Assembly (NCBI GenBank): GCA_964478135.1
Contig: CAYZGQ010000001.1
Location: 3,365-67,364 of the forward strand
Direction of reading: 5' to 3'
From: an uncultured Candidatus Saccharibacteria bacterium
GTDB lineage: Bacteria > Patescibacteriota > UBA1384 > GWA2-35-9 > CAYZGQ01
DNA length: 64,000 bases
The position numbers and the translations under genes are program-made. Positions 11,629 through 38,630 of the stretch are shown here, one piece after another. The notes beneath the pieces were generated by a model. That model was not told the origin of the DNA, ran no database searches, and was given only the letters and a program-made list of their open reading frames with translations. The first letter of the stretch is position 1. Each line of letters starts with the position of its first letter.

Positions 11629-12576
11629 ATGCCCGAGTTTGATCTTTCCCCGCCACCGCCCCAAGGACAAAATAATCCCAACGCGCCAGGCCAAGGATCA
11701 GTTAGTGATCTTAGAAACGCTCCAGTCTCTCCAGTCGCTGGGACAGCGCCTTTTAAACCTGACGCTGGGGCGATCGGTTCAGTGCCCAGCCATGAGCCAA
11801 ACCCCGGCCAAACGGTTGGTCCTAACCCCAATCAACCTGTGGTTTCGTCGGTTTTGGGTCCACCGGCGCCGGTTCAGCCCGATCAAGCTGGATCGGTCGC
11901 ACCTCCGGATAAGCCTTCTCTAGGTCCAGAACTACCAGCCGCTCAATCAGAATTACCCCCGGTAAAATCAGGGCGATCGGGTATGTGGAAGATTTTTATC
12001 GCCCTGGGCTTGGCGGTAGTGCTGACGGCTATTGTCTACGCTTTTGTTAGTCTACCATCACTGCGCGGCTTAATCGGCCTTGATAGCCCAGACAATCTAG
12101 TGCTAGATGATCAAGATCAAGTCAGCGATCTTGATGATCTGGGTTTTTCCGAGTTCGGGGATGATTTTTCAGACACGAGTCTCAATAACGGTGTGGTTGG
12201 AGATTTATCTCAAGGGAGGGTACCGGTTGGTCAACAAAATAACACTTCCTCGAACCTCGATAACCAGAGAAAGAATGATTTGTCATTGATTCAAAGTTAT
12301 CTCGAGGCTTACTTTACAGACAAGGGCGCCTATCCTGTCGCTGGATCATTTATTAAAACGAGCGATCCTTCTTCGGTTTTGCAGGCCGCGCTGTTACCGA
12401 GCTACGCCAGCCAATTACCAGACGATCCTAACTCGGGCCAAGGATGGTGGTATGGCTACCGTTCAGTTGATGGAGCTTCTTATGAACTGACCGCCCGGCT
12501 CGAAAACGAGATTGATCCGCAAGGGGTTAAAGATATTAGCGGTTTAACGCTTTACAAACTGAATAATCCCCGATAA
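11629..12576 (+). CDS. membrane protein: ~117-aa proline-rich N-terminal region, one TM helix, pseudopilin (GspG/type IV pilin)-like C-terminal domain
   Basis: Strong SD AAGGAGG at 11617-11623. Residues 1-117 are P/G/N/Q-rich. The TM is MWKIFIALGLAVVLTAIVYAF, preceded by ...SGRSG. The C-terminus DLSLIQSYLEAYFTDKGAYP...LPDDPNSGQGWWYGYRS resembles the GspG motif (Y..DnGrYP ... DPWG..Y.Y). Confidence 0.5.
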   Translation: MPEFDLSPPPPQGQNNPNAPGQGSVSDLRNAPVSPVAGTAPFKPDAGAIGSVPSHEPNPGQTVGPNPNQPVVSSVLGPPAPVQPDQAGSVAPPDKPSLGPELPAAQSELPPVKSGRSGMWKIFIALGLAVVLTAIVYAFVSLPSLRGLIGLDSPDNLVLDDQDQVSDLDDLGFSEFGDDFSDTSLNNGVVGDLSQGRVPVGQQNNTSSNLDNQRKNDLSLIQSYLEAYFTDKGAYPVAGSFIKTSDPSSVLQAALLPSYASQLPDDPNSGQGWWYGYRSVDGASYELTARLENEIDPQGVKDISGLTLYKLNNPR

Positions 12577-12643
12577 ATCTGGAACGATCGTTCTTCCTGA
12601 ACCAGTGGTTTAGTGAAACTATTCGTACTATAATTAGACTGTT

Positions 12644-13207
12644 ATGCCACGGAGGGGACTTAATTATCTTCTTTTTAGTTTAGTTGTTGTTTCGGCGATT
12701 TTGATGATCCTTTTTTGGCGCAGGAGTCCCAAACAGCCAGTTGACCGGCTGGCCCAGGAGCAGAAAGCGGCCGTTCTCTTTACCAGCGCCAAGGAGGCCC
12801 AAACATCGAGAGACTTTAAAACCGCGGTTGCCCGCTATCAGGAAGCGATCTCGTTCAACCCGAATGAGCCGGTTTATTTTGAGTCGCTCGGAGTCGCCCA
12901 GTATAACATTAAGGATTACCGGGGGGCGATTGCCAGTTTTGAGCAGGCGCTCAAATTGACGCCCGGGAGCGCCTTTTTATGGAACGGTTTGGCCAACGCC
13001 GCTCGCGACAGCGGCGATCGCCAGAGAGCCTTTGAGAGCTACCGCAAGGCGATCGAGCTTGACCCGGGTTTTTTGGTCGGCTACACCAACTTGGCTTACC
13101 TTTACCGAGACCAAGGCGCGGTTGACCGGGCTAAGGAGGTAATCGCCGAAGGTCTGGCCAAAAATCCCGACTCGGTTGAGTTGAAAGACATTTTAAAAAA
13201 CCTATGA
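12644..13207 (+). CDS. TPR-repeat protein with N-terminal TM anchor
   Basis: N-terminal hydrophobic helix followed by about 4 TPR units (YQEAISFNPNEPVYFESLGVAQYNIKDYRGAIASFEQALKLTP ...). Its stop overlaps the next gene as ATGA. Confidence 0.6.
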   Translation: MPRRGLNYLLFSLVVVSAILMILFWRRSPKQPVDRLAQEQKAAVLFTSAKEAQTSRDFKTAVARYQEAISFNPNEPVYFESLGVAQYNIKDYRGAIASFEQALKLTPGSAFLWNGLANAARDSGDRQRAFESYRKAIELDPGFLVGYTNLAYLYRDQGAVDRAKEVIAEGLAKNPDSVELKDILKNL

Positions 13208-16200
13208 AACGTCATTTGATTAAAACTCTCGAACGTTTGCTTCATCTGCGGCGCCGGACGACAGGCAGAGTTCACGCCCATCTGGTTGGTCGATGGGGCT
13301 GGTATCGAATCTGGCACGAATTTCCTTTTCACCGCCAGGTTCATTTAACCTCTCTTATTTTGATAGTTTTTGGCACGCTCGGTTTGGTCTTGACAGCCAC
13401 TCGGCCGGCCTTGGCAACTGACTACACCGTCTCGACCAACTCGACTTGGTGCGACTCGGGCGATCTGCCGGCCTCAATCGGCAATCTGACAATTAATTCC
13501 GGCGTTACCCTGACACTCGGCGGGACATCTGGCAACGCGGTCAACGGCCAGAATACTGGCGGGACCGACGCCTGTTCTTATGAGGCGCCGAGTTCGGGTG
13601 TCAGTTGGACAATGACCGGGACAGGGACCTTGACGGTTAACGGCACAATCAAAGTTCAAAGCGAGATTTCCGGCTCAACTGGCGGCACAGTCAAAATAGA
13701 TTTTGCGACAGTGACAGTTGCTTCAGGAGGTAAAATTCATGCTGACAGCACGGGGTTTCTCTCATGTAACACATCAGGTTGTACTGGAGGCGGAGCAGGT
13801 GGAGGACAGTGGACCTCTGGCTATTACGGTGGCGGTGGGGGGCATGGCGGGAAAGGCGGCACCGGTCATATTACTAATGGAAAAGGAGGTTCGGTAAATG
13901 GTAATTCATTTGCTCCTGTGACACTGGGTTCGGGCGGAGCGGGAGGTTCTCAAGGGGCAGGAGGTGGAGCAGTTTATATTAATTCAAGTGGCACCGTTAC
14001 AGTTACAGGAACGGTATCCGCAAATGGTGAGGTAAGCAATAGCAGTGTTGGCGGAGGGGGATCTGGAGGGAGCATTTACATTACCGCCGCTACTGTTGCC
14101 GGCGCAGGGACTGTTACAACGACTGGGGGGGATGGTGGTAGCGCATCCGCTGGTGCGGGCGGAGGCGGTAGAGTTGATATTCGCTATTCGACAGCCAATA
14201 CCTTTAGCGTTGCCAACGCAACAGCCGCAACTGGTTCTACTGGCGTAGCTGGTGATGCTGGAACAATTATTTTTATTGATTCAACCAACAAGGATGGGTA
14301 TATCTACAAAACTTTTACATTCAGTGCGGCGCAAGGAATAGATACAAACTTAGCGACAACTACTGACGGAATATTTAATTTTCGCGATCTTACTTTAGGC
14401 GACGCTTCCAACACTGCAACTGTGTTAGCAATATCAACCGGAACAAGCCCCAATGGTAAAGGACCAACCCTCAATCTAACTGGAAACTTTACTTTAGCCA
14501 GTGGCTCAACCTTTTCAGCCAATGGCACGGGTTATTCCGGTGGTTCAACAACTGGCGTTGGGCCTGGGGGTGGAACCTGGGCTAGCGGGTTTTACGGTGG
14601 TGGAGGAGGGTATGGCGGAGCTGGCGCCACGGGGAGCTCCAGCTATGGTGTTGGTGGCCCTACTTATGGTTCAGCTTCAGCGCCAATTGATCTTGGTTCT
14701 GAAGGTGGAGGCGATCTAGCATCCTCATCGGGTGATGGCGGCGGCGCTATTAGAATCAATGCTACTTCAGGCACTGTTACTATCAATGGCACGATTTCAG
14801 CCAATGGTTCTGCTGGAGGCAGTAGTGTATCTGCCGGCGGTTCAGGCGGCAGTATCTATATTACAGCAGCGACGACCGCTGGCACTGGTTCAATTACAGC
14901 TAATGGCGGCGCTGGAGGTAGTGGCAGCGCTGGCGGAGGGGGCGGCGGTCGGTTGGGTCTTTATTATGTGACTGCCCAAAATCACACCGGTAGCAGGACG
15001 GCCAGCCTCGGGAGCGGCGGGACTGGCGGCTCGGCCGGCACGGTCACTCTCAAATCAATCCCAGCCGCTCCGACCCTTTCCTCTCCGGCCGACGCCGACG
15101 GGGTTTCAACCACGCCGGCTTTGCAGTTTTCAACCACTAATGCCGGCACGAATGAAAATGTTCAGTACTACATCCAGATTGACGACAATTCTGATTTTTC
15201 CTCGGTCACTCAAACGATTGACCAAACCGCCTCTCAAACCGGTTGGACCGGACAAGATCGGGCTAACGGCACGAGCGCGACCGCCGGATCAAGTTTTTAC
15301 GCCTCCTCGACCAGCGCCACTTTTACGGTCCAGACCGCTCTGACCACCAACACCACCTATTACTGGCGCGTTCGAGCCATTGCCTCGGGTGGATCGAATA
15401 TCTATGGCAGTTACTCGAGTTCTCGTTCGTTCGTGACCAACGACCCGCCCCAAGTCTCGATCACCAACACCCCGAGCCAGGATTCTTCCGGCAACATCGC
15501 GATCAACTACAATATCTGTGATACCAACCACTCGACGCTGACCATGCGGGTCCAGTTTACGACCAACAACTCGATCTACACGACCGTCGCCGCCGGGGCG
15601 CTCTCGGGCACCAACAGCTTTGGGTCGGTCACCGGCGTCTCGAGTAATTGCGCCTCGCCCAGCGCCAAGACAGTCACCTTTGACGTCTCGGCCGATTCTA
15701 ATGTCCCGGCCTCCTACTACTCGGCCGCCTCGGGAAACTGGAAAGTTCGCATCCAAGCCGACGATGGCATCGCCAACGGCCAGATCAACTCGACCGCCTC
15801 GTCCGCCTTTGAGCTGGACAACGTCTCGCCCGCTACCCCGACCCATTCTTCGCCGGCCAACGCCAGCTACACCAACGACACCACCCCGGATTTGACCGGA
15901 TCGGCCTATTCCGACGACACTACTCAAACCAATCTTCGGATTCAGATTGACGATAATTCGGATTTTAGTTCGGTCGCTGTTGACTACACCAAAGGCGCTT
16001 CCGGCGTGACCTTTACGGTCGGTCAGGCGGTCGGTTCGGGGACATACACCGCCGGATCGGCCGGTCAAACTTTAGCCGACGGGACATACTACTTTCGGCT
16101 GCGCTACACCGATTCAAAAGGCAATCTATCGAGTTATTCGACCGGCACCTCGTTTACCGTTGACGCGACTTCGCCGGTCGCGCCTAGCTCGTTCAATATT

Positions 16201-19200
16201 TTTGACACTTCAACCGGCTCTAATAATTCCCATCAGGTTGAATGGAACGCCGCTACCGAGGCAAACTTCAAAAATTATCTTGTCCTGCGTTCAACCGATG
16301 ACGTCAGTTATTCGACGCTCTCAACCATTACCGATTCAACCATCCGCAACTATCGAGACTCCAGCCTTGACTCGGCTACGACTTACTACTATAAGATTCG
16401 GACGACCGACCAGGCTGACACGGCGACCGATACGGCCGCCGTGTCGAACAAACCCGGCGCCCCGACCCTCTCGGCGATTTCTTCCGGCACGCCCGGGACC
16501 AACTCGGCCACCATTACTTGGACTTCAAGCGAAAACGGCAGTTCAGAAGTTCGACTCGGGACCTCAAGCGGCAGTTATGGTCTTGGCGTTCGGGGCAACA
16601 ATGCCGACTCGGCTACCTCCCATTCCCAGTTGGTTTCAAATCTCAATCCCAATACGACCTATTACTACATCGTTAGGTCTCGAGACGGCAGTGGACTGGC
16701 GACCACCTCGGCCGAGAATAGTTTTACCACCGCGGCCAAAGTTTCAGCCAGCTCTCTTGCCTCGAGCGTCAGTCACACGACCGCCACCCTGACTTGGAAC
16801 ACCACTGGCACCAACACCTCGAGTGTTGTTGACTGGGGAACCTCAAGCGGCAGCTACAGCCGATCAGACGGCGACGCCGACGCTTCAGAGACGACCCACT
16901 CGGTTACCTTGAAAGGACTAGCTCCGGGCACGACCTATTACTGGCGGGTCAACTCGACCGATTCAAACCTAAATGCCATTACCTCGACCGAGCAGAACTT
17001 GACCACGACCGCCAGACCGGCGATTTCATCAGTCTCATCCGGCACGCCCGGTCAAACCAGCGCCGCGATCACCTTTTCGACCGACCGGTCGGTCAAGGAT
17101 GTTTTTGTTGATTACATTGCTTCCTCAACAAGCGGCGCCTGCGCCAGTGTCTCGAATGCCAAAACGGTTTCGGGCGGGATCGCCGCCAGCGCCGGCACGT
17201 CCCACAGCGTCTCTTTAACCGGTCTTTCGGCCGGCACGACCCATCGGTTCAGAGTTCGAGTGATCGAGCTTGACGCTTCAGCTGAGAGCGCCAATCAACA
17301 GGTTCAAACGATTGATGACAACTCCGGCGCCTGCTACAGCTTTACCAGCGCGACCGACTCGACCGCTCCGACTATTTCCAATCTCGCTTCCGGCAACATC
17401 ACCAACACCTCGGCGGTTATCACTTGGGAGACCGACGAGCCGGCGACCGGCCTTGTTTCGGTCAGCTCTTCAAGCGGTTTTGGTTTTGCCAGCGGCAGCC
17501 AGACAACCGCCAACCCCTCGGCCAATAATCAGAAACAGACCGCCGTTATTACCGGGTTGACCAGAAACACAACCTACTATTTCTTGGCCCGGTCGGTTGA
17601 CGGTTCAAATAATGCCACGACTGCTCCTGAAGCTTCATTCACGACGACCGGCGACGCGACCGGTCCGGTTATTTCCGGCTTGACCGCAAGCTCGATCACG
17701 ACCGACGGCGCCCTCATAACCTGGACGACCGACGAGCCGGCCACGACTCAAGTCAACTATGGCCAAACGACCAATCTGGGCTCGTCCTCGGCCAAAGATG
17801 AAAAGCTTGATCGCAATCACCGAGTCACGCTATCCGGTCTTTCGGGCGCCACGCTCTATTACTTCCAGGTGGTTTCCCAAGACGCCAACGCTAACGAGAC
17901 CAAGAGCCCTGTTTCCTCGACCACCACCTTGACCACCCAGACCGTGCCGAGTGTCTCGAGCATCTCGCTGGGAGAGATTAGTTCAAAAACAGCGACTGTC
18001 AGCTGGAGCTCCAATCTCGCTGGCGATTCGTTCGTCGATTATGGTCTGACTTCGAGTTATGGTTCGCGTCAAGGTCGAGCTGATGACAGCCAAACCGCAC
18101 ACTCAATCACTCTCTCTGGCTTGAAGTCCTCGACCACTTATTACTTTCGAGTCAGAACAAAAGATTCAAACGGCAACGAAGTCATCTCGTCTGGTTCAAG
18201 CTTTACAACCGAGAGCTCGGAAGACGATGTCTCGTCTGACAAATTGGCCCCGGTCATCAGCGGCAATGAAGCCAGCCTCTCTGGTCTAACCGATACTCGA
18301 GCGACAATCAGCTGGACAACCAACGAGGAGTCAACCTCGAGGGTGGATTATGGTCTTGACCAATCTCTCAATCAGTCCCAAAGCGACGATACTTTTGTGA
18401 CCAAGCATGAATTGAAGTTGACCGGCCTTGAAGCGGGCAAGAAGTATCGTTTTCAAGTCTCGAGTCTCGATCGAAACAAGAACCGCGGCAAAGGGAGCGT
18501 TCAAGAGTTTACGACCGCCAAGTCTTCGGCCATTTCCGACGCTTCGCTCGTCACTCAAGAGCTCGATAAACTGATCCTTTCGGTTCAAACGACCGAGGCG
18601 ACCAAGGTGAGGGCTCTCTTTGGCGCCGGTTTGGACAGACTTGACTCCGAAGTTTCAAGTCTGGGCGCCGAGACCTCGAGCCACGCCTTTGTGATCGAGA
18701 ATCTCACTCCGGGGACGGCCTATTATTTTCAGTTTTCGGTTAAGGACAAGTTTGGTCAGGAAACGACCACACCGAGTTTTTGGAAGTTTGAAACTCGAGC
18801 CTTGCCGAAAATTACGGCCGTTAATGTAACCGACCAACAGGCGACCCAGGCGGTCTTGTTGGTTTCAGTCAACACTAAAGCCCAAGTGATCGCGGCTTAC
18901 ACCGATCTTAATAGCAAAAGCCGGAGCGTTGGCTCTGGAGCGCTGGCCGAAAAGCACGAAATTAGGCTGGACGGTCTGAAACCAGAAGCAACCATTCCAG
19001 TTGCCTTGACCGCGATTGACGCATCTGGCAATCAGGCCGTTTTTCAAACCAATGTTTCGACCACCGGCGATCGGTCCGCGCCCGAATTTCAAAAAATCGA
19101 GACCGAGATTATCGGCGGGAGCGGCAACAAAGGGGCGACGATCATCGTCTCGGCGGTGCTTAGCGAGCTGGCGACACTTAATGGTCAGGCCGGTCTGGCC

Positions 19201-19461
19201 GCCAGCAATCAGACGCCGATAACCACGCCCAAAAACGCCGCCGCTAAGGAACAGACATTGGTTTTTCGGAATCTGCCTTCTGGTCAGTTTGTTAAGTTTA
19301 AGCTGATAGCCGAAGATCCGGCAGGCAATGTCACAGAGTCGCCCGACATCACCACCTTTACCCCGGAGCCGAGTAAAAGCGCTCTGACCCTTATCACGAC
19401 TCAACTTGAAACTATCTTCGGCGGTCTGGGAAAAGGCCTTCAGTCTTTATTTGGCAAGTAA
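13204..19461 (+). CDS. giant secreted/cell-surface protein (2085 aa): two ~230-aa Gly-rich beta-helix-like repeats followed by an array of fibronectin-III-like domains
   Basis: N-terminal hydrophobic segment with an AxA site (RPALA). Tandem Gly-rich repeats (GGGxGG...SGGSIYITAAT x2). At least 10 FN3-like modules with recurring TTYYWRV/YYFRV/YYYKIR/YYFQV signatures. S/T-rich. Confidence 0.8.
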   Translation: MKRHLIKTLERLLHLRRRTTGRVHAHLVGRWGWYRIWHEFPFHRQVHLTSLILIVFGTLGLVLTATRPALATDYTVSTNSTWCDSGDLPASIGNLTINSGVTLTLGGTSGNAVNGQNTGGTDACSYEAPSSGVSWTMTGTGTLTVNGTIKVQSEISGSTGGTVKIDFATVTVASGGKIHADSTGFLSCNTSGCTGGGAGGGQWTSGYYGGGGGHGGKGGTGHITNGKGGSVNGNSFAPVTLGSGGAGGSQGAGGGAVYINSSGTVTVTGTVSANGEVSNSSVGGGGSGGSIYITAATVAGAGTVTTTGGDGGSASAGAGGGGRVDIRYSTANTFSVANATAATGSTGVAGDAGTIIFIDSTNKDGYIYKTFTFSAAQGIDTNLATTTDGIFNFRDLTLGDASNTATVLAISTGTSPNGKGPTLNLTGNFTLASGSTFSANGTGYSGGSTTGVGPGGGTWASGFYGGGGGYGGAGATGSSSYGVGGPTYGSASAPIDLGSEGGGDLASSSGDGGGAIRINATSGTVTINGTISANGSAGGSSVSAGGSGGSIYITAATTAGTGSITANGGAGGSGSAGGGGGGRLGLYYVTAQNHTGSRTASLGSGGTGGSAGTVTLKSIPAAPTLSSPADADGVSTTPALQFSTTNAGTNENVQYYIQIDDNSDFSSVTQTIDQTASQTGWTGQDRANGTSATAGSSFYASSTSATFTVQTALTTNTTYYWRVRAIASGGSNIYGSYSSSRSFVTNDPPQVSITNTPSQDSSGNIAINYNICDTNHSTLTMRVQFTTNNSIYTTVAAGALSGTNSFGSVTGVSSNCASPSAKTVTFDVSADSNVPASYYSAASGNWKVRIQADDGIANGQINSTASSAFELDNVSPATPTHSSPANASYTNDTTPDLTGSAYSDDTTQTNLRIQIDDNSDFSSVAVDYTKGASGVTFTVGQAVGSGTYTAGSAGQTLADGTYYFRLRYTDSKGNLSSYSTGTSFTVDATSPVAPSSFNIFDTSTGSNNSHQVEWNAATEANFKNYLVLRSTDDVSYSTLSTITDSTIRNYRDSSLDSATTYYYKIRTTDQADTATDTAAVSNKPGAPTLSAISSGTPGTNSATITWTSSENGSSEVRLGTSSGSYGLGVRGNNADSATSHSQLVSNLNPNTTYYYIVRSRDGSGLATTSAENSFTTAAKVSASSLASSVSHTTATLTWNTTGTNTSSVVDWGTSSGSYSRSDGDADASETTHSVTLKGLAPGTTYYWRVNSTDSNLNAITSTEQNLTTTARPAISSVSSGTPGQTSAAITFSTDRSVKDVFVDYIASSTSGACASVSNAKTVSGGIAASAGTSHSVSLTGLSAGTTHRFRVRVIELDASAESANQQVQTIDDNSGACYSFTSATDSTAPTISNLASGNITNTSAVITWETDEPATGLVSVSSSSGFGFASGSQTTANPSANNQKQTAVITGLTRNTTYYFLARSVDGSNNATTAPEASFTTTGDATGPVISGLTASSITTDGALITWTTDEPATTQVNYGQTTNLGSSSAKDEKLDRNHRVTLSGLSGATLYYFQVVSQDANANETKSPVSSTTTLTTQTVPSVSSISLGEISSKTATVSWSSNLAGDSFVDYGLTSSYGSRQGRADDSQTAHSITLSGLKSSTTYYFRVRTKDSNGNEVISSGSSFTTESSEDDVSSDKLAPVISGNEASLSGLTDTRATISWTTNEESTSRVDYGLDQSLNQSQSDDTFVTKHELKLTGLEAGKKYRFQVSSLDRNKNRGKGSVQEFTTAKSSAISDASLVTQELDKLILSVQTTEATKVRALFGAGLDRLDSEVSSLGAETSSHAFVIENLTPGTAYYFQFSVKDKFGQETTTPSFWKFETRALPKITAVNVTDQQATQAVLLVSVNTKAQVIAAYTDLNSKSRSVGSGALAEKHEIRLDGLKPEATIPVALTAIDASGNQAVFQTNVSTTGDRSAPEFQKIETEIIGGSGNKGATIIVSAVLSELATLNGQAGLAASNQTPITTPKNAAAKEQTLVFRNLPSGQFVKFKLIAEDPAGNVTESPDITTFTPEPSKSALTLITTQLETIFGGLGKGLQSLFGK

Positions 19462-19483
19462 GTCCTTAAATTAAAGACAAGCG

Positions 19484-20188
19484 ATGCCAGCCAGCAACGT
19501 AATTGAACTTAGATCGGTCACGAAAATCTTTGACAAGGGCAAGCCGAACGAGTTCTATGCCCTCCGAGATGTCAGTCTCGAAGTCAAGGCCGGAGAATAC
19601 TTAATTCTTTTTGGGCCGTCCGGTTCGGGCAAATCAACCCTTTTGAACATTGTGGCCGGTCTTGATCCCTACGAGAAAGGCGAGGTCTTGATCCGAGGCG
19701 AGCGGCTCTCGAAAAAAAGTCAGAACGAGCTGGCTCGCCACCGGCGGGAAAAGGTCGGTATGGTCTTTCAGCAGTTTAACCTTTTGAAAGGGATGTCTGT
19801 TCTTGACAATGTTGCTTTGCCCGATTTGTTTGCCGGTAAATCTTACAAGGTCCGGCGCAATCGGGCCAAAGAACTCTTGAGTCGGTTGGGGTTGAGTAAA
19901 ATGGCTTATCGCAAGCCCAACGAACTCTCGGGCGGACAACAGCAGAAAGTCGCGATCGCCCGGGCCCTGATTCACAACCCTTGGATTTTGCTGGTTGACG
20001 AGCCGACCGGCAATCTGGACTCCAAGTCGGCCGAAGAGGTGATGAATCTACTCAAAGACCTTAACCAGAAGGGCAAGCGGACGATCATGCTGATTACTCA
20101 TAATCCGGATTATCTTGACTATTCCAATCGGGTGGTTTACATGCGCGATGGGAAAATCGAGCGAGAAAAGAGGTCAAGATCACGATGA
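19484..20188 (+). CDS. ABC transporter ATP-binding protein (LolD/MacB/FtsE-like)
   Basis: Walker [13 protein letters not shown] signature [15 protein letters not shown], Walker B ILLVDEPT. Confidence 0.85.
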
Positions 20189-21381
20189 GGCCGGTCGATT
20201 TTTTGAGATTAAGCCTTCAAAATATTTGGGGCAATCGTTTAAGATCAAGCCTGACTGTTTTGGGAGTTAGTATTGGCATTGGCTCAATCGTTTTTTTGGT
20301 CGGCTTAGGCTTTGGCCTGCAACGTCTGACAATTAACCGGATAATCTCTTCGGCCGCCTTGACCACCTTGGATGTCACGACCACCAAGTCGGCCCTTCTT
20401 AAGCTCGATCAAGAAGCGACCAGCCGGTTTGCCAACATCACCGGAGTTGAGGCGGTTTCGCCGATTTTCCGACTGCCTGGTCAGAGTCAGCGGGACGGGA
20501 CGGCGACCGAGACTCTGATTCAGGGGGTCGAGCCCTCGTTTTTTGACCTTGAGGGGATGAAGCTTGTAGCCGGAAGAATCCCGACAGACTTTTTAAAGCC
20601 GGTTTTGGTCGTCAGCGCGAGCACGGTCAAGCTTCTTGGTTTTGAAAGTCCGCAGGCGGCGCTCGATCAAAAACTTGAGATCCGGGCGGCAATTGTCGGC
20701 TCGGAGGACGGTGAGAATAATGGTCTGGTGGCTCAAAAAAATTATAAATTGCCAGTCGCCGGCGTGGTCGAAAACGAATCCTCGGTCGTTTATCTGCCGA
20801 TTGAGCTGGTGCGATCGGAACAGTTGATCAATTACGATCAGGTCAAGGTTAAGGCGCGCTCGATCGTGGAAATAGACCAGATCAAACAGGGAATCAGCGA
20901 CCTTGGGTTTCAGGTGACATCGGTTGCCGATTTGGTTGAGGAGGTCAATCGGATCTTTCGCTATTTCCAGATCATTATGGGCGGTTTTGGTCTAATCGCT
21001 CTCCTTGTCGCTTCGATCGGAATGTTTAATACGATGACAATCGCCCTGCTTGAGAGAACTCGGGACATAGGAGTTATGAAGGCGATCGGGGCGAGAAACT
21101 TCGACATTAAAGTCTTATTTGTCGCCGAGTCAACTATTCTAGCCGTTCTTGGCGGCTCTCTCGGAGTCTTTTTGGCTTGGTTCTTGAGCCTTTTGGTCAA
21201 CGGTTTCGTCAGCCAGATCGCCCGAGCCGGCGGCGTCGGCCCGATTGATCTCTTTTACTTCAACCCGATCTTTGTTTTGTTGGTGGTTTTGTTTTCCCTT
21301 GTTGTCGGTTTGCTAACCGGCATCTATCCGGCGCTTCGGGCCGCCAGACTCAATCCCTTAACCGCGCTAAGATACGAATAG
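20185..21381 (+). CDS. ABC transporter permease, MacB-like periplasmic domain plus FtsX 4-TM domain
   Basis: N-terminal TM, a roughly 200-aa extracytoplasmic domain, and a C-terminal FtsX-like TM bundle. ATGA coupling to the ATPase. Confidence 0.8.
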   Translation: MRPVDFLRLSLQNIWGNRLRSSLTVLGVSIGIGSIVFLVGLGFGLQRLTINRIISSAALTTLDVTTTKSALLKLDQEATSRFANITGVEAVSPIFRLPGQSQRDGTATETLIQGVEPSFFDLEGMKLVAGRIPTDFLKPVLVVSASTVKLLGFESPQAALDQKLEIRAAIVGSEDGENNGLVAQKNYKLPVAGVVENESSVVYLPIELVRSEQLINYDQVKVKARSIVEIDQIKQGISDLGFQVTSVADLVEEVNRIFRYFQIIMGGFGLIALLVASIGMFNTMTIALLERTRDIGVMKAIGARNFDIKVLFVAESTILAVLGGSLGVFLAWFLSLLVNGFVSQIARAGGVGPIDLFYFNPIFVLLVVLFSLVVGLLTGIYPALRAARLNPLTALRYE

Positions 21382-27445: not shown

Positions 27446-30400
27446 TTGATCCCGCTGGCACAAGCAGGCCAGCTTTTTGGCTATTCAGCCGGTCATATGA
27501 ACTATTTAGCCCGGTCAGGGAAAATAATCGCTTTGAAACTCGGGGGTCAGTGGTACACGACTCGGGCGGCTGTTTCAGCCTACCAGGCCGGTCAACCCCA
27601 ACCGGAAAACCCGACCGGATTTATGTCTTTAGCCCAAGCGGCCAAGCAGTATGGCTATAGCGCCGGACATCTCAACCTTTTAGCCCGAGAAGGTAAGCTT
27701 GAAGCGGTGAAACTTGGGCGAAACTGGTACACGACCGAGCGCGCTATCGACCAGTACCGACAAGGCGTGCGTGAGATAGAATTAGTGCCAGATAGTCCTG
27801 ACCCGGCGCTCCAGATATCCCAGCCAGAAAATATTAATGTTAAAGTCAGGCCAGTAGCCAGTTACCAGGGATTTGGCATAACCGAAACCGATGATGACGC
27901 GCCAGGTCCGACCGGGGGATTTAGGCTCAAGTCAGTTATGGTCAGCCGTGGTTTTAAGCTCGGGTTGATCACACTTATAGTGTCTGGGCTGGCTTTTGGA
28001 CTGGGACGACTGGTTCAAGGCTGGCGCACGGGTGAGTTGAATGGACTGGGGCCATCTGGCATCGCGGCTTATTTGTTTGGTGGAGAGTTGGCCCAAGGAG
28101 ATCGTCTGGGCTCGGGTTTTCTCGGCAGTATCACACGAGAGCGAGCTCAATCCGATACGCCTGGGGTCAGACCCGAGGCGAGCCCTAGTCCGGACACTGT
28201 GGTCAATAACACGACAGTCAACAACTATAACCAGACCGTTAACAACGACAATCGTCAGGTGACAAACATCAGTACAACCAAAACTGCTAAAGATATTGTT
28301 GGAGAGTTATCCGACCCGCAGGTGAGTGATGACATCACGATTAACTCGAGCAAGGCTGGTTCGTTTAGTCCAAGCGGTAACACTACTGCCTTGACGGTCA
28401 AGCAAAGTTCAGCCAGTCCCTCGGAAACCCCGATCGTTAAGATTCAAAACGCGTCTGGGGCTAACCTTGTCACAGTTGATTTTGAAGGCAATTTAGGTCT
28501 GGCTGGTGGATCTAGATTGGAAATAGGCGGTCAGCAAATAGGAATTGCCAATCTAGCGGATGGATCTTCTATCGCGTCTCTTTCCGGTAGTCAAACTCTG
28601 ACTAATAAAACTTTGAGCGCGGGCGTTATCTACCAAGGATCGGCGATTAGCCCGAGCTACGGCGGGACCGGTCTAACATCAGCTCCCAGCAACGGCCAAC
28701 TCTTGATCGGCAATGGCTCGGGTTATACTCTGGCGGCTCTAACGGCTGGGACGGCAATTAATGTGACCAACGGTTCTGGTTCAATTACGATCGCTAATTC
28801 AGGTGTTACCTCGCTATCTGCCGGAACCGGCATCGCTGTTAGCGGTTCGTCGGGCGCGGTTACACTGACCAATTCGGGCGTGACCGCTCTGACCGGCACA
28901 ACCAACCAGGTCAGCCTGTCTGGTTCAACCGGTTCGATCACCATCTCAACGCCCCAAAACATTCATACCGGCGCCAGTCCAACCTTTTCAAGGCTCAATT
29001 TATCCGAGGCGTCCAATCAGTTGGTTCTTCAGTCAAATAGTGTTACAGGCAGTCTGACCTGGACGCCGGTCACATCCAATAAAACGATCACTCTGCCTAA
29101 TCTCACCGGAACCGCTTTTTTGATTGATGGAGGCCAGACGATCAGCTCTGCTGTCTGGAACGCTAGCGCTATCGGCCCGAGCTATGGCGGGACTGGTCAG
29201 ACGACCCTGGCCAAGGGTGATATTTTGTATGGCTCGGCGACTGATATTTGGTCGCGACTGGCTGTTGGCAGTATTGGTTATGTCCTCCAGGTCTCCCTAG
29301 ACGGCGTTCCAGAATGGGCGACTATTTCTTCCTTATCTGTTGGTAATGCTGACACGCTTGATTCGCTTGATTCAGCGGATTTTTTGCGCGCGACCGCCTC
29401 GGACACTTTTGAAGGAGTTAATTCAAGAACCCTGACCATTCAGTCTGATCTTTCCTCAGGCGCGAGGACGGTTGACCTTTTGACGATCAGCCAGGCGAAC
29501 GATCCAACCAATAACTTTACGACTGGCAATCTCCTAACAATTGCCCAACTCGACACCGGTTCGTCGGCCGATGCCTTAGAACTTAATCAGACTGGATCTG
29601 GTAAGGCTATTAACATTGTTTCAGGCGAGCTGGCGACAGCCGGCAACATCGTTCAAACCGGGGCAACCACGCTGTCAACCGGCACGGGCGCGGTCTCGCT
29701 CGGGGGTGACACGACCATCGCTACTGGAAAGAACTTGACTCTCGCGTCCGGGACAGGCACTTTTAGTCAGATTTTTAGTAATACGACCGGTACTGGAGCA
29801 AACTGGAATATCACTAACTCTGGTTCTTCTGGGACTAACACTGTTGGCGGGATAGGATTAGTGTTGGCTGGAACCGCCAACACGACTGGTTCGAATGTGA
29901 TTAATGCTATTAATTTTTCCAATGTCCCTCCGGCGACCAATAATTCTTATTACGCCCTGAATGTCGGAACCGGCTTTACTGATATTGTACGCTACAATGG
30001 CGCCCAGTTGATCTCTGGCTCGGGTGTCATTCAATCGGCCGCGCTTTCTGGTAACTACACTGGTGTTACTGGAGTTGGGATTTTATCCACCGGCACCTGG
30101 AATGCAGACACAATCATCTTTGCCAAGGGCGGCACGGGCTTAACAGCCACGCCCAGCAATGGCCAACTCTTGATCGGCAATGGCTCGGGTTACACTCTGG
30201 CCGGCTTAACCGGCACTACCAATCAGATCAATGTCGCTAGCGGGGCCGGTTCGATCACCCTCTCAACTCCCCAAAACATCCATACCGCCGCCAGTCCAAC
30301 CTTTGCCGGTTTGACTTTGTCCGACTTGACCCCTGGTTCTTTGGTCTTTGCCGGCGCCGGCGGGGTGATCAGCCAGGACAACGCCAAGTTCTTCTGGGAT

Positions 30401-32896
30401 CAGACAAATACTCGATTGGGTCTCGGGACAAGTTCGCCACTTTTTCCGATTCATGTTGTTAGATCGGGCGGTGGCGGGACGTTGAATTTTGACACTTACG
30501 CCGGTTCTGGACTGGGCAACAGCGCCATTCAAGGTCGGCGGGCGGCCGGAACTTTGGCCAGCCCGACAGCCACTCTGTCGGATATGACTCTGTTCGATCT
30601 GCTTGGGTCTGGCTACGACGGTTCAGCTTTCACCGGACAGATCGCTTCGATACGCATGCAAGCCAATCAGAATTTTAGCCCGACCAGTCAGGGCACCAGG
30701 ATTGTCTTTTTGACCACGGCCAATGATTCGACGACCGCGACTGAACGGCTGCGGATCAAACACAATGGCGATGTGGCAATCGGCAACGGCTCGACCGATC
30801 AGATATTATTTGGTTCGACCGGCTCGGCGGTCTTCAACGAACAGGGCAATGATGCCGATTTTCGGGTCGAGGGCGACACCGACGCCAATCTATTGTTCAC
30901 CGACGCTTCGGCCGATGTCTTGGGTGTCGGCACCGCGACCTTCGAAGCCAACACCCGCAAGATGGAGGTGAGATACACCGATACCGCGACCTCCGGAGGC
31001 ACCTTTTCAACGATTAGATTGCTTTCGGACATCAATGCTCCTTCTAACTCCACGGCATCCCATTTTGGTCTAGGAACGACTTTAAGAACCGCGAGCGGCA
31101 ACGCTTCCAACTACACCGACTCCACGACAGGTATTAAGGCGATGAACTTTGTCGTCCAGCACCGAGGCACAGGCACGGTTACTAGAATGACAGGCTTGGG
31201 CGGCAATGTCACCAACAGCTCAAGCGGTACGATTACGACTGCCGAGAGCATCGTGGCTGGGGTTGACCTGACCTCAACCGGTCCGATTACTACTTGGAAC
31301 GCCCTGCGGGTCTTCGCGCCCTCTATCACTGGCTCTGGGGTGCTGACTAACGCTCGCGGGCTTTACATCAGTAACATCACAGGGGCCTCCACGCAGAATC
31401 TAGCTATCCTGACAGAAGGGGGCGGAGTAGTCTTTAATGAAAACGGCACGGACAGCGATTTCCGGGTCGAGGGCGACACCGATGCCAATCTATTGTTCAC
31501 CGACGCTTCGGCTGATCGGGTTGGTATAGGGACAAACACCCCTTCGCTCAAACTTCACGTGGTGGACAACTCTTCAACTTCGGCTATTTTCCAGCGCAAC
31601 AGCACTGCCACCGGTTCGAGTGTTGGCTCAACGGTTTTTTTGGATAATTTGGACACCACGACCAACAATGGAGCTCGTTTGATTTTTAGAACCAACGATA
31701 CTGGCGGCGCAACCAGGCAAGCGGCTGGAATAGGCTCGCTCGTAACCGCCCGGGGTGCTAGCAGTGTGACTGGCGATCTGGTATTCCTGACCAACAACAA
31801 CTCAACCGGCGTTTCCGAGGTTGCTCGGTTAACCGGAGCGGGCGCGCTTGGCATTGGTGAGTCGCCGGCGGCCAATATGAAGCTTGATGTCGCTGGCCGG
31901 GTTCAGATTAATCTGGCCGGAACCCAAACCTCGGTTGCCTTGTGCGGTAGTCACCCGGCTGGCGGCGGGGCCTCGGTTTCCGATGTCGAGATTGTTGACT
32001 GCACCGGCACGCCGGCGGCTGACTATGCCGAGATCTATCCGGTTTCAAACGATGTTGAATACACTGATTTAGTGGCTATCGGACCGGATTCGGTTAAAAC
32101 CACCGATCAAAACTCGATTCAAAGGCTAGTCAAAGCTACGATCGCCAATCAAGCCAACACTTTAGGAGTCGTTGTTGACAACTACGGCGATTTCTCCTCG
32201 GTCGGTCACAACATTAAAGGTTCTGATAATCCCAAACCGGTCGCGCTTTCAGGCCGGGTGAGAGTGAAAGTTTCCGGCCAGTCGGGCGCGATAGCGCCCG
32301 GCGATTATCTGACCGCCTCGTCCAAACCCGGTCGGGCGATGAAGGCGACCTCAAGCGCCAAGATAGTTGGAGTGGCTTTGGGATCATTTAGCGGCGACGA
32401 GGGGACGGTAATGATGTTTGTCAGCAATTTCTGGTATAATCCGTCTTCGGGCGAGAGTATTCAGGGTACCCAAACTGCATCCTACCAGGCGCTCGAAGTT
32501 GCCGGCCTTTTGCGAACGAATCTTTTGGAGGTTGCCGGGCCAGCCGAGTTCAAAGGTAGTTTAGTTGTCTGGGGTGAAACAACCTTTAAGGCACCGGTTG
32601 TGGTTCAAAAGACGCTGACTGCTAAAGAAAAGATCGTGTCCAAAGGTGACCTTGAGCTCAAGGGCAATCTTGTTCTAAACCCCGACATTAAAGGGTCAGC
32701 CTTGCCAGTGACTAAGGGCGCGACCAGCCTTGAGGTCGTGTTTAGCAAGCCCCAAGCTGACACAAGCTACTTGGCTTTCGTCACGCCATCCCAGCCGATC
32801 GGTTTTGGCGTTACCAAACAATCTGACAAAATGATCGTTACCTTTGAGGCCGAGGCGCCGGAAGGATTAATCCTGGATTGGCTGATAGTCAGATGA
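27446..32896 (+). CDS. giant membrane-anchored protein (1816 aa): two N-terminal excisionase-type HTH (HTH_17-like) repeats, one TM helix, tail-fibre-like S/T/G-rich ectodomain
   Basis: Repeats LAQAGQLFGYSAGHMNYLARSGKIIALKLGGQWYTTRAAVSAYQAG and LAQAAKQYGYSAGHLNLLAREGKLEAVKLGRNWYTTERAIDQYRQG fit the excisionase/MerR-type HTH pattern. TM helix at about aa 175-195. The ectodomain has GPSYGGTG and (V/I)GIGT...KLHV tail-fibre-like motifs. The ORF track start is a TTG and the true start is uncertain. Confidence 0.75.
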   Translation: MIPLAQAGQLFGYSAGHMNYLARSGKIIALKLGGQWYTTRAAVSAYQAGQPQPENPTGFMSLAQAAKQYGYSAGHLNLLAREGKLEAVKLGRNWYTTERAIDQYRQGVREIELVPDSPDPALQISQPENINVKVRPVASYQGFGITETDDDAPGPTGGFRLKSVMVSRGFKLGLITLIVSGLAFGLGRLVQGWRTGELNGLGPSGIAAYLFGGELAQGDRLGSGFLGSITRERAQSDTPGVRPEASPSPDTVVNNTTVNNYNQTVNNDNRQVTNISTTKTAKDIVGELSDPQVSDDITINSSKAGSFSPSGNTTALTVKQSSASPSETPIVKIQNASGANLVTVDFEGNLGLAGGSRLEIGGQQIGIANLADGSSIASLSGSQTLTNKTLSAGVIYQGSAISPSYGGTGLTSAPSNGQLLIGNGSGYTLAALTAGTAINVTNGSGSITIANSGVTSLSAGTGIAVSGSSGAVTLTNSGVTALTGTTNQVSLSGSTGSITISTPQNIHTGASPTFSRLNLSEASNQLVLQSNSVTGSLTWTPVTSNKTITLPNLTGTAFLIDGGQTISSAVWNASAIGPSYGGTGQTTLAKGDILYGSATDIWSRLAVGSIGYVLQVSLDGVPEWATISSLSVGNADTLDSLDSADFLRATASDTFEGVNSRTLTIQSDLSSGARTVDLLTISQANDPTNNFTTGNLLTIAQLDTGSSADALELNQTGSGKAINIVSGELATAGNIVQTGATTLSTGTGAVSLGGDTTIATGKNLTLASGTGTFSQIFSNTTGTGANWNITNSGSSGTNTVGGIGLVLAGTANTTGSNVINAINFSNVPPATNNSYYALNVGTGFTDIVRYNGAQLISGSGVIQSAALSGNYTGVTGVGILSTGTWNADTIIFAKGGTGLTATPSNGQLLIGNGSGYTLAGLTGTTNQINVASGAGSITLSTPQNIHTAASPTFAGLTLSDLTPGSLVFAGAGGVISQDNAKFFWDQTNTRLGLGTSSPLFPIHVVRSGGGGTLNFDTYAGSGLGNSAIQGRRAAGTLASPTATLSDMTLFDLLGSGYDGSAFTGQIASIRMQANQNFSPTSQGTRIVFLTTANDSTTATERLRIKHNGDVAIGNGSTDQILFGSTGSAVFNEQGNDADFRVEGDTDANLLFTDASADVLGVGTATFEANTRKMEVRYTDTATSGGTFSTIRLLSDINAPSNSTASHFGLGTTLRTASGNASNYTDSTTGIKAMNFVVQHRGTGTVTRMTGLGGNVTNSSSGTITTAESIVAGVDLTSTGPITTWNALRVFAPSITGSGVLTNARGLYISNITGASTQNLAILTEGGGVVFNENGTDSDFRVEGDTDANLLFTDASADRVGIGTNTPSLKLHVVDNSSTSAIFQRNSTATGSSVGSTVFLDNLDTTTNNGARLIFRTNDTGGATRQAAGIGSLVTARGASSVTGDLVFLTNNNSTGVSEVARLTGAGALGIGESPAANMKLDVAGRVQINLAGTQTSVALCGSHPAGGGASVSDVEIVDCTGTPAADYAEIYPVSNDVEYTDLVAIGPDSVKTTDQNSIQRLVKATIANQANTLGVVVDNYGDFSSVGHNIKGSDNPKPVALSGRVRVKVSGQSGAIAPGDYLTASSKPGRAMKATSSAKIVGVALGSFSGDEGTVMMFVSNFWYNPSSGESIQGTQTASYQALEVAGLLRTNLLEVAGPAEFKGSLVVWGETTFKAPVVVQKTLTAKEKIVSKGDLELKGNLVLNPDIKGSALPVTKGATSLEVVFSKPQADTSYLAFVTPSQPIGFGVTKQSDKMIVTFEAEAPEGLILDWLIVR
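30849..30918 (+). repeat. intragenic repeat copy A (about 70 nt, about 90% identical to copy B exactly 600 nt downstream)
   Basis: ttcgggtcgagggcgacaccgacgccaatctattgttcaccgacgcttcggccgat versus the copy at 31449-31518. Encodes DFRVEGDTDANLLFTDASAD in both. Confidence 0.8.
31449..31518 (+). repeat. intragenic repeat copy B
   Basis: Near-identical to 30849-30918. The flanking sequence is conserved only at the protein level. Confidence 0.8.
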
Positions 32897-38577: not shown

Positions 38578-38630
38578 TATCCCTCCTTTTGAGCTCAAGA
38601 TATATTTAATTAATTTGTAATTCTGTTTTT

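What the first reader, a model, noticed from the sequence alone, without database searches (positions are those of the whole stretch)
11629..21381. Candidate surface-appendage module: pseudopilin-like protein with 117-aa Pro-rich leader, TPR protein, 2085-aa adhesin and MacB/FtsX-type ABC pair
Five co-directional genes are tightly coupled. The TPR stop overlaps the adhesin start as ATGA. The ABC ATPase and permease also share an ATGA overlap. The first protein has a GspG/type-IV-pilin-like C-domain (Y..DKGAYP ... DPNSGQGWWYGY). Its hydrophobic segment is preceded by a 117-aa Pro/Gly/Asn-rich region ending in Gly, rather than the short class-III leader. The giant protein has duplicated Gly-rich beta-helix-like repeats plus 10 or more FN3 domains. 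The combination suggests a dedicated export or assembly route for an episymbiont-style adhesin.
Basis: partly seen in the sequence, partly recalled or inferred. Interest (0 to 1): 0.6.

Follow-up and report, generated by a model that had tools for sequence, protein, structure and literature searches.

The report
Giant surface protein with dedicated ABC partner
The five genes are real, but they are two separate things: a membrane-tethered protein with a pilin-type head that cannot build a pilus, and a four-gene cassette, repeated across Patescibacteria, that pairs a giant surface protein carrying a conserved C-terminal tail with its own MacB-type ABC machine and a TPR protein.

Summary
The gene calls, both ATGA overlaps, the Pro-rich stretch before the hydrophobic segment, the pilin-like C-domain, the duplicated Gly-rich module and 13 FN3-like domains were all confirmed.

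The five-gene "appendage module" does not hold.

- **Genes 2-5 (12644-21381).** They form a cassette that moves as a unit. The giants share an N-terminal juxtamembrane motif and a C-terminal tail (..TPxxxxSALxL[VI][IV]xxLxxxFG[FW]..). Of the non-redundant tail-bearing giants, 55 of 63 have an ABC ATPase directly downstream. Ten of 11 MacB orthologs have a giant next to them. The signal-anchored TPR protein stays adjacent in permuted orders.

Best reading, and an inference: a Sec-exported fibril whose tail is held or handled by a type VII (MacB-like) ABC mechanotransducer. I found no description of this cassette in the literature searched.

The parts
11629..12576 (+). Membrane-tethered pilin-head protein (315 aa). 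It is not part of the cassette. Layout: acidic N-terminus MPEFDL plus Pro-rich region (residues 1-118), TM helix (122-140), acidic linker (143-205), T2SSG/GspG-fold head (206-315 = 12244-12573).
   Evidence: Synteny with Ctp-L9 is shown.
12644..13207 (+). Signal-anchored TPR protein (187 aa, TM helix at residues 6-24). It is the recurring fourth member of the cassette. Its stop overlaps the giant's start (ATGA).
13204..19461 (+). Giant surface protein (2085 aa).
13204..13416 (+). Extended signal region of the giant. It holds the juxtamembrane motif GRWGWYRIWHEFPFHRQVHL, a hydrophobic core (residues 48-66) and an ALA|TDYTV cleavage-type site.
   Evidence: The cleavage is inferred from the sequence pattern, not predicted by a tool.
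13714..15045 (+). Two copies of a Gly-rich all-beta module (residues 171-355 and 430-614), 57% identical.
   Evidence: The fold was not established.
15190..19356 (+). Array of 13 FN3-like domains (residues 663-2051).
19360..19458 (+). Conserved C-terminal tail TPEPSKSALTLITTQLETIFGGLGKGLQSLFGK. It is in register with the family motif TPxxxx[SN]ALxL[VI][IV]xxLxxxFG[FW].
   Evidence: The motif was found in 75 of 77 unique tails.
19484..20188 (+). ABC ATPase (234 aa) with intact Walker A, Q-loop, signature, Walker B and H-loop.
20185..21381 (+). MacB-type (type VII ABC) permease (398 aa). Layout: TM1, a 215-aa MacB_PCD ectodomain, then TM2-4.

Best explanation
The interval holds two unrelated units. 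Unit A (11629-12576) is a bitopic membrane protein. It has a cytoplasmic acidic/Pro-rich disordered N-terminus, one TM helix, an acidic extracellular linker and a C-terminal domain homologous to the globular head of GspG-type pilins. The head begins exactly where the alpha-1 helix of a pilin leaves the filament core. Without a class III signal, Glu5 or a contiguous alpha-1N helix, it most likely stays tethered to the membrane and does not polymerise. Its role is unknown; I take it to be a housekeeping envelope factor, given its conserved place after ctp and rplI. Unit B (12644-21381) is a four-gene cassette that is widespread in Patescibacteria. The giant protein is exported through Sec using its own extended signal peptide (inferred). 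Its variable Gly-rich head and 13-domain FN3 stalk project outward. Its conserved C-terminal tail, hydrophobic at roughly helical spacing, stays at the membrane surface. There the dedicated MacB-type ABC complex engages it, helped by the membrane-anchored extracytoplasmic TPR protein. The complex has a 4-TM permease with a 215-aa ectodomain plus an intact ATPase. I commit to the FtsEX-like reading: the ABC complex holds the tail as an anchor and transmits ATP-driven conformational changes to the fibril. It does not transport the fibril across the membrane. What is shown: the gene linkage, the terminal motifs, the domain identities, the absence of LPXTG, and the matching of tail class to permease architecture. 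What is inferred: the physical tail-MacB/TPR contact, the topology, and the anchoring or mechanotransmission role.
For: Unit A. The C-domain search gave 1062 relatives at E<=1e-3. Nearly all of the best 150 have a long N-terminal region, one TM helix and a C-terminal head, and none has a prepilin motif. An N-terminal MDLDF-type motif and a post-TM GKxLIGL motif are conserved. The head aligns end to end with true prepilins from ARDxQRKxDL onward. Of 34 family domains, 32 hit Pfam T2SSG. The fold was confirmed. Synteny MnmA-Ctp-L9-X is seen in L003-L005 (L006 shows only a Ctp fragment and an L9 about 1.8 kb upstream of X), and LemA/M48 then LigA-GatCA follow X in L004 and L005.

Unit B, anchored on MacB. 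Ten of 11 orthologs (39-49% identity) have a giant FN3 protein adjacent, with different flanking genes: TatD, ferredoxin, RecO, ComEA, FtsA/MreB, LigA.

Unit B, anchored on the tail. Of 69 unique tails, 55 of 63 with at least 1 kb downstream have the ATPase directly downstream, and 45 of 52 with at least 2.5 kb have ATPase plus permease. At least 353 relatives were confirmed in JGI metagenomes. The tail motif was found in 75 of 77 unique tails. Tail class tracks transporter architecture..TFGW/..LGW tails go with a ~400-aa permease, and ..AFGFLGGL tails go with a ~700-aa or fused ~950-aa form. The TPR ortholog is adjacent in four different gene orders, and it has a basic N-terminus plus a TM helix. 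The giant lacks LPXTG, while two other large proteins in the same window end in LPKTG+TM+basic tail next to a sortase. So this protein uses a different C-terminal signal. The permease has the MacB/LolC topology, and its nearest solved relatives are YtrF, MacB, Spr0695 and LolF/E/C. The ATPase motifs are intact.
Against: There is no direct evidence of contact between the tail and MacB or TPR. Conserved gene order in streamlined Patescibacteria genomes can persist without any functional link; the L9-gene 1 adjacency is itself an example. The tail/permease matching could simply follow phylogeny. About 13% of tail-bearing giants lack a visible ABC pair (some are tandem giants). One MacB ortholog (L009) has TPR but no ATPase or adjacent giant. 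The window's own tail is a divergent member (FGG rather than FGF/FGW). Signal-peptide cleavage and topologies rest on sequence rules, not on a predictor. The function of Unit A remains a guess.
Confidence: 0.55

Rival explanations
1. Release or maturation model. The MacB-type complex works like LolCDE. It extracts the membrane-embedded C-terminal tail, or the uncleaved N-terminal signal anchor with its conserved juxtamembrane motif, from the outer leaflet. It then hands the giant to the TPR protein or the cell wall, so the ABC is a one-time sorting machine rather than a permanent anchor.
For: The permease has the full MacB_PCD ectodomain typical of LolC/E and MacB rather than the small FtsX loop. 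The ATPase scores nearly as well on the LolD model as on the top-scoring MacB model. The N-terminal juxtamembrane motif is conserved along with the tail. TPR proteins often bind terminal peptides (general knowledge).
Against: No LolA/LolB-like carrier and no lipobox are present. Once released, the giant would have no recognisable anchor (no LPXTG, no cell-wall-binding domain in Pfam), which is awkward for an adhesin. The scores stay below the curated Lol cut-offs.
Confidence: 0.22
2. One reading: all five genes form one surface-appendage module in which the pseudopilin-like protein is a subunit or assembly factor for exporting the adhesin.
For: The five genes are adjacent and co-directional in this window. 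The head of gene 1 is truly pilin-like.
Against: Orthologs of gene 1 keep their place after L9 with LemA/M48 and LigA downstream and no cassette. In L003 the cassette sits 7 kb away, upstream of TatD. No family member was found in 788 kb around 88 cassettes. Gene 1 has no class III signal, no Glu5 and a 63-aa linker between the TM helix and the head. No T4P/T2SS machinery genes are in the window. Forty-five of 48 genes share the strand.
Confidence: 0.05
3. Coincidental neighbours. The ABC/MacB pair is a generic efflux, peptide-resistance or FtsEX/Lol-type housekeeping transporter. The giant gene merely shares a conserved genomic position with it.
For: MacB-family pumps are common and usually export small molecules or peptides (PMC5985334). 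Patescibacteria genomes keep long syntenic blocks of unrelated genes. L009 has the permease without a giant.
Against: The trio or quartet moves as a unit between unrelated flanks, and its internal order is permuted while its membership is kept. About 87% adjacency was found when starting from the tail alone. Tail class matches permease architecture. The FtsX and Lol models score below their cut-offs.
Confidence: 0.12

Closest known systems
FtsEX with its extracytoplasmic partners (EnvC, PcsB, CwlO, RipC)
   Same: An ABC ATPase is paired with a 4-TM FtsX/MacB-fold permease. Its ectodomain binds a helical element of an exported protein and passes on ATP-driven conformational change without transporting it (PMC7668044, PMC6355983, PMC10694151). 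The proposed working principle here is the same.
   Different: The ectodomain here is the full 215-aa MacB_PCD, not the small FtsX loop. FtsX/FtsE NCBIfam models score below their cut-offs. The partner is a 2085-aa FN3 fibril with no hydrolase domain. The partner gene is almost always adjacent.
MacB / LolCDE / YtrF family (type VII ABC transporters)
   Same: These are the closest by sequence. MacB aligns over the whole permease (E 1.6e-25), and YtrF, Spr0695 and LolF/E/C align over the TM region. The domain pair MacB_PCD+FtsX and a separate LolD-like ATPase are shared.
   Different: No MacA-type adaptor, TolC or LolA/B is present in the window or in the neighbouring loci. The candidate substrate is a giant protein with no lipobox. 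All curated equivalog cut-offs are missed.
Sortase / LPXTG surface-protein anchoring
   Same: It shares the design logic: a Sec signal at the N-terminus, a variable head, a repeat stalk, and a short conserved C-terminal sorting element next to the membrane.
   Different: The giant has no LPXTG, no hydrophobic TM segment and no basic tail. The same window carries a sortase with two genuine LPKTG substrates, so the FG[FW] tail is a separate signal with a different, ABC-type partner.
GspG/PulG/EpsG major pseudopilins and type IV pilins (Pfam T2SSG, N_methyl)
   Same: The head of gene 1 is homologous and has the same fold.
   Different: There is no class III signal peptide, no Glu5, a 118-aa cytoplasmic N-terminus, and a 63-aa linker that breaks the alpha-1 helix. 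No T4P/T2SS genes are nearby.
Large FN3-rich putative adhesins of Patescibacteria
   Same: This is the same class of giant, signal-bearing, FN3-rich proteins proposed to mediate host contact (PMC13059738, PMC11809585).
   Different: In the passages I read, those papers do not mention a conserved terminal tail or a linked MacB-type ABC/TPR set.

Membership tests
Type IV pilin / T2SS pseudopilin | Short basic leader ending in Gly(-1), cleaved by prepilin peptidase (class III signal; Pfam N_methyl) | tested here: not met
   There are 118 residues before the hydrophobic segment and no N_methyl hit. No G[FMLIV..]xxxE motif occurs in any of the 150 best relatives. Gly(-1) is not conserved in the family alignment.
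Type IV pilin / T2SS pseudopilin | Glu at position +5 of the mature protein | tested here: not met
   The segment reads MWKIFIAL, with Phe at +5. No conserved Glu appears in the family.
Type IV pilin / T2SS pseudopilin | Continuous alpha-1 helix (hydrophobic alpha-1N running into amphipathic alpha-1C) | tested here: not met
   The TM helix spans residues 122-140 and the head helix starts near residue 206. An acidic low-complexity linker of 63 residues lies between them. In relatives the linker reaches several hundred residues.
Type IV pilin / T2SS pseudopilin | Alpha-beta globular head of pilin fold | tested here: met
Type IV pilin / T2SS pseudopilin | Pfam T2SSG (PF08334) above the gathering score | tested here: inconclusive
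   The window protein scores 13.9 bits against a cut-off of 21. Of 34 relatives, 32 match at E<=1, with the best at 7e-9. Four long relatives score above the cut-off.
Type IV pilin / T2SS pseudopilin | Genomic association with PilB/C/D/M-type machinery | tested here: not met
   No such genes are among the window ORFs of at least 100 aa from 8.9 kb to 62.5 kb that I scanned, in the called genes upstream, or next to the orthologs in L003-L005. The rest of the genome could not be examined.
MacB-type (type VII) ABC transporter | Permease with TM1, large ectodomain (MacB_PCD), then TM2-4 (FtsX domain) | tested here: met
   Pfam MacB_PCD (1.8e-20) and FtsX (5.9e-19), both above cut-off. Hydropathy gives a 4-TM layout with a 215-aa loop. 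It aligns to MacB along its full length.
MacB-type (type VII) ABC transporter | Cognate ATPase with catalytic motifs | tested here: met
   [23 protein letters not shown] and ITHN are all present. ABC_tran scores 1.6e-37.
MacAB-TolC tripartite pump | MacA-type periplasmic adaptor and an outer-membrane duct | tested here: not met
   No HlyD/MacA or TolC family gene is found in the window or in the 11 orthologous contexts.
LolCDE lipoprotein release system | Equivalog-level match and a lipoprotein (lipobox) substrate | tested here: not met
   lolCE scores 79 bits against 362, and LolD scores 211 against 308. The giant's signal has no Cys lipobox.
FtsEX | Equivalog-level match to FtsX/FtsE with a small ectodomain | tested here: not met
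   FtsX models score 34-46 bits against cut-offs of 225-255, and FtsE scores 202 against 265. The ectodomain is MacB_PCD-sized.
Sortase substrate | C-terminal LPXTG plus a hydrophobic segment plus a basic tail | tested here: not met
   The giant ends ...TQLETIFGGLGKGLQSLFGK. Two other window proteins do end in LPKTG+TM+basic tail.
Type 1 secretion substrate | No N-terminal signal, C-terminal secretion signal, HlyB-type ABC plus adaptor | tested here: not met
   An N-terminal signal-type hydrophobic segment with an ALA|T site is present. The ABC is MacB-type and there is no adaptor.
Proposed giant-tail / MacB / TPR cassette (defined here) | C-terminal motif TPxxxx[SN]ALxL[VI][IV]xxLxxxFG[FW] within about 20 residues of the stop, followed by ATPase plus MacB permease, and (in the ~400-aa permease subfamily) an adjacent signal-anchored TPR | tested here: met
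   The window tail is in register with the motif, with FGG at the last position. The ATPase and permease follow after 22 bp. TPR lies upstream with an ATGA overlap.

The most novel reading that the evidence does not exclude
The conserved C-terminal FG[FW] tail, together with the N-terminal juxtamembrane motif, could be a previously undescribed protein-sorting or anchoring signal of Patescibacteria. Its dedicated machine would be a MacB-type ABC complex plus an extracytoplasmic TPR receptor. That would make it a third way, beside sortase/LPXTG and lipoprotein sorting, for a bacterium without an outer membrane to attach giant surface fibrils, with ATP-driven mechanical control of the fibril as a possibility. 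Separately, the membrane-tethered pilin-head family would be a case of a pilin globular domain reused as a non-polymerising ectodomain joined to a cytoplasmic Pro-rich tail.
Probability: 0.4. Interest if true: 0.8.

Novelty: new variant of a known kind. Interest (0 to 1): 0.6.

Why it matters
Patescibacteria make up a large share of bacterial diversity, and most are thought to live attached to host cells. How they display their giant surface proteins is unknown.

A four-gene cassette found in hundreds of metagenome contigs offers a concrete, testable handle on that question. It combines a recognisable terminal signal with a dedicated MacB-type ABC machine.

It would also extend the mechanotransmission principle, known from FtsEX, LolCDE and MacB, to surface fibrils.

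The tail motif is a simple marker for finding these proteins in genomes.

The pilin-head family is a warning for annotation. Hundreds of proteins that match T2SSG are probably not pilus subunits.

Tried and rejected
- **Searches with gene 1.** The word-indexed search with the whole protein found only itself. Pfam, NCBIfam and a PDB phmmer search with the single sequence found nothing. Homology appeared only with the exhaustive search of the C-domain and with profiles.
- **Alternative start at Met119.** Rejected. The upstream ATG has a strong Shine-Dalgarno, and the N-terminal motif plus the Pro-rich region are conserved in the family.
- **Alignments for locus searches.** Two alignments were too diverse for the search for related loci and had to be narrowed.
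- **Fold of the Gly-rich N-terminal module.** The single-sequence model reached pLDDT 45.7 and is unusable, so no fold search was run on it. A PDB profile search returned nothing. The afdb50 library was unavailable.
- **Promoter/terminator scan.** Nothing above shuffle expectation separated the genes. A TATAAT 10 nt before the TPR start was seen by eye only.
- **Pam pilus of CPR bacteria** (bioRxiv 10.64898/2026.03.03.709456). Considered and rejected: those are Ig-fold donor-strand pilins, and the text mentions no ABC, MacB or TPR component.
- **FtsEX, LolCDE, MacAB-TolC, T1SS and sortase memberships.** Each failed at least one defining feature (see the membership table).
- **Literature.** Six searches found no description of the cassette or of the tethered pilin-head family. 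The library lacks most papers from subscription journals, so this is not proof of novelty.
- **Taxonomy.** The lineage within Patescibacteria remains undetermined.


Full report
**What is in the sequence**

The interval contains five + strand ORFs at exactly the stated coordinates: 11629-12576, 12644-13207, 13204-19461, 19484-20188 and 20185-21381. Both ATGA overlaps were read directly. The surrounding genes are housekeeping. Upstream are MnmA, an S41 C-terminal processing protease (Ctp) and ribosomal protein L9. Downstream are LigA and GatCAB.

The window looks like a streamlined Patescibacteria (CPR) genome. The same contig exists in a public assembly, and the relatives found all come from Patescibacteria MAGs. 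Forty-five of 48 genes are on the + strand, so co-directionality says nothing about function. No tRNA or Rfam element is present.

**Gene 1 (11629-12576)**

The start is well supported: AAGGAGG lies 5 nt before the ATG. The protein has these parts:

- an acidic N-terminus, MPEFDL
- a 118-residue region with 28 prolines, ending KSGRSG
- one TM helix (residues 122-140)
- a 63-residue acidic linker
- a C-terminal domain

Pfam, NCBIfam and PDB searches with the single sequence were negative, and a word-indexed search found only the protein itself. An exhaustive HMMER search with residues 196-315 found 1062 cluster representatives at E<=1e-3.

Nearly all of the best 150 share one architecture: a long Pro-rich N-terminal region of about 60-400 residues, a single TM helix, a variable spacer, and the domain at the C-terminus. 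None carries a prepilin cleavage motif. A subfamily of similar length begins with MDLDF and has a GKxLIGL motif just after the TM helix. The "117-aa leader" is therefore a conserved family trait.

**The C-domain of gene 1 is a pilin head**

- A profile of 34 family domains hits GspG/EpsG/PulG chains as the eight best PDB sequences, with E from 4.6e-4.
- The same profile retrieves true prepilins carrying N_methyl and T2SSG.
- In the alignment, the domain matches those prepilins from the ARDxQRKxDL start of alpha-1C to the last strand, while their GFTLxE/alpha-1N part has no counterpart.
- Of the 34 domains, 32 match Pfam T2SSG; the window's own domain scores 13.9 bits, below the cut-off.
- An AF2 model reached pLDDT 90.8.
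- Foldseek ranks EpsG, PulG and GspG first, with probability up to 0.98.

So the head is homologous to pilins. The defining features of a polymerising pilin are absent: the class III signal, Glu5 and a continuous alpha-1 helix.

**Is the five-gene module conserved?**

No. Relatives of gene 1 in GTDB genomes, including two Berkelbacteria MAGs, keep the order MnmA-Ctp-L9-gene 1 (L003-L005). In L004 and L005, gene 1 is then followed by LemA and an M48 peptidase, and then by LigA-GatC-GatA. There is no TPR, giant or ABC pair between gene 1 and LigA.

In L003, an FN3 protein, an ABC ATPase and a MacB permease lie together. They sit 7 kb away, upstream of TatD. In 788 kb around 88 cassette loci, the family profile finds no gene 1 relative; the only hit is one ordinary prepilin in L015.

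**The giant-ABC-MacB-TPR cassette, approached from the permease**

Orthologs of the permease (39-49% identity) were looked up on long contigs. Counting L003, ten of 11 contexts have a giant FN3-rich protein next to the ATPase-permease pair. The flanking genes differ: ferredoxin, RecO, ComEA, FtsA/MreB, glycosyltransferases, LigA.

A signal-anchored TPR ortholog is adjacent in L009, L011, L012, L013/14, L097, L098 and L099. Four gene orders occur:

- TPR-giant-ATPase-permease
- giant-TPR-ATPase-permease
- giant-ATPase-permease-TPR
- ATPase-permease-TPR-giant

Membership is kept while order is shuffled. That is the pattern expected of a functional unit.

**The cassette, approached from the giant**

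The giants share a C-terminal tail directly after the last FN3 domain. A metagenome scan seeded on the last FN3 domain plus tail gave at least 353 confirmed relatives, of which 80 loci were fetched.

| Set of non-redundant tails (69 unique) | Result |
|---|---|
| At least 1 kb of downstream sequence (63) | 55 have an ABC ATPase directly downstream |
| At least 2.5 kb of downstream sequence (52) | 45 have ATPase plus MacB-type permease |

Some exceptions are tandem giants.

The motif is [VT][TI][IL]TP-K-A-T-x-[SN]-A-L-x-L-[VI]-[IV]-x-x-L-x-x-x-F-G-[FW], followed by 2-18 residues. It was found in 75 of 77 unique tails, and the window's tail is in register with it. Hydrophobic positions recur at roughly helical spacing (i, i+3/4, i+7), which fits an amphipathic helix and not a TM segment. 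This is an inference.

Tail class tracks transporter architecture. ..TFGW and ..LGW tails go with ~400-aa permeases, and this subfamily includes the window and all the TPR-bearing cassettes. ..AFGFLGGL tails go with ~700-aa permeases or fused ATPase-permeases of ~950 aa.

The N-termini also share a juxtamembrane motif before the hydrophobic core. It reads (R/K)WxWYxxWHxxPxH in the window's subfamily and (Y/F)LFxPRFHFxRFQFNL in the other. A small-residue site such as ALA|TDYT follows the core.

**Anatomy of the window's giant**

- signal region: residues 1-71
- a Gly-rich (25% Gly) all-beta module present twice: residues 171-355 and 430-614, 57% identity, z about 24 against shuffles
- 13 FN3-like domains between residues 663 and 2051
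- the conserved tail

"Beta-helix" could not be verified.

The giant has no LPXTG. By contrast, the same window encodes a sortase (34598-35275, minus strand) and two large proteins that end in LPKTG, a TM segment and a basic tail. The organism therefore uses classical sorting for some surface proteins and something else for this one.

**The ABC pair**

The ATPase has all the catalytic motifs. The permease has TM1, a 215-aa MacB_PCD ectodomain and TM2-4. Its nearest solved relatives are YtrF, MacB, Spr0695 and LolF/E/C. It misses the curated cut-offs for MacB, LolCDE and FtsEX. No MacA/HlyD adaptor or TolC gene is nearby.

**How it most likely works**

From established knowledge of type VII ABC transporters, these machines act on the outer face of the membrane through mechanotransmission (PMC5985334, PMC7668044, PMC6355983). 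They do not move substrates across the membrane.

Combined with the giant's own Sec-type signal, I infer the following sequence. Sec exports the giant. The variable head and FN3 stalk extend outward. The conserved tail stays at the membrane, where the MacB-type complex engages it, with the extracytoplasmic TPR protein as co-receptor or chaperone.

I favour a hold-and-actuate role like FtsEX over a Lol-like release role, because the protein has no other anchor. Both remain open.

Gene 1 is a separate, probably housekeeping, membrane-tethered pilin-head protein of unknown role.

**Novelty**

Giant FN3-rich putative adhesins of Patescibacteria are known as a class (PMC13059738, PMC11809585). Six literature searches found no description of the tail motif, of the MacB/TPR linkage, or of the tethered pilin-head family. 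The recently reported Pam pili are unrelated. The searchable library lacks most papers from subscription journals, so prior description cannot be excluded.

I rate the finding as a new variant of a known kind: type VII ABC mechanotransmission with a new class of partner. Interest is 0.6.

Noticed in passing
window 34598-35275 (-), 35272-38598 (-), 41576-45193 (+): A sortase gene overlaps the end of a 1108-aa CarboxypepD_reg-repeat protein that ends in LPKTG+TM+basic tail. A 1205-aa protein 3 kb away ends the same way. This is a classical sortase system in the same genome as the FG[FW]-tail giant.
   Followed up: partly
window 27446-32896 (+): An 1816-aa ORF in a second high-GC stretch (0.56) has an HTH_17 DNA-binding-type match near its N-terminus and no other Pfam hit. 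Its true start, and the meaning of an HTH domain on a giant protein, are unclear.
   Followed up: no
window 13330-13416; L021, L015, L099, L038, L043, L064 and others: The giants share a conserved aromatic/His-rich motif just before the signal hydrophobic core: WxWYxxWHxxPxH, or LFxPRFHFxRFQFNL. This resembles the specialised extended signal peptides of Gram-positive adhesins. It could be a second recognition element.
   Followed up: partly
window 12629-12634: A TATAAT lies 10 nt before the TPR start codon, with no Shine-Dalgarno. It may be a promoter giving a leaderless transcript for the four-gene cassette, separate from gene 1. It was seen by eye only and was not called by the scan.
   Followed up: no
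L032, L045, L047, L057, L072, L091; L034, L043, L069 and others: In the ..AFGFLGGL tail subfamily the transporter is either a fused ATPase-permease of ~900-980 aa (like E. coli MacB) or a split form with a ~700-aa permease. The extra ~300 residues were not characterised.
   Followed up: partly
L005 12669-13784: A reverse transcriptase (RVT_1) gene sits between LemA and the M48 peptidase, just downstream of the gene 1 ortholog. It may be a retroelement or DGR insertion.
   Followed up: no
L009 3707-8343: In the closest MacB ortholog context, Fic, MazE, PIN, Kelch and Bro-N genes separate a protein of more than 1591 aa from M48-TPR-MacB-LigA, and the ATPase is missing. This looks like a cassette disrupted by mobile or toxin-antitoxin genes.
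   Followed up: no
P0002-P0005, P0042, P0066 (relatives of gene 1): Some long family members carry two pilin-head domains in tandem at the C-terminus, plus a conserved ~350-residue middle region with no Pfam match.
   Followed up: partly
window 14001-18000: GC rises to 0.55-0.57 and GC skew turns negative inside the giant gene. This fits its Gly/Ala/Ser/Thr-rich composition and does not require foreign origin.
   Followed up: partly
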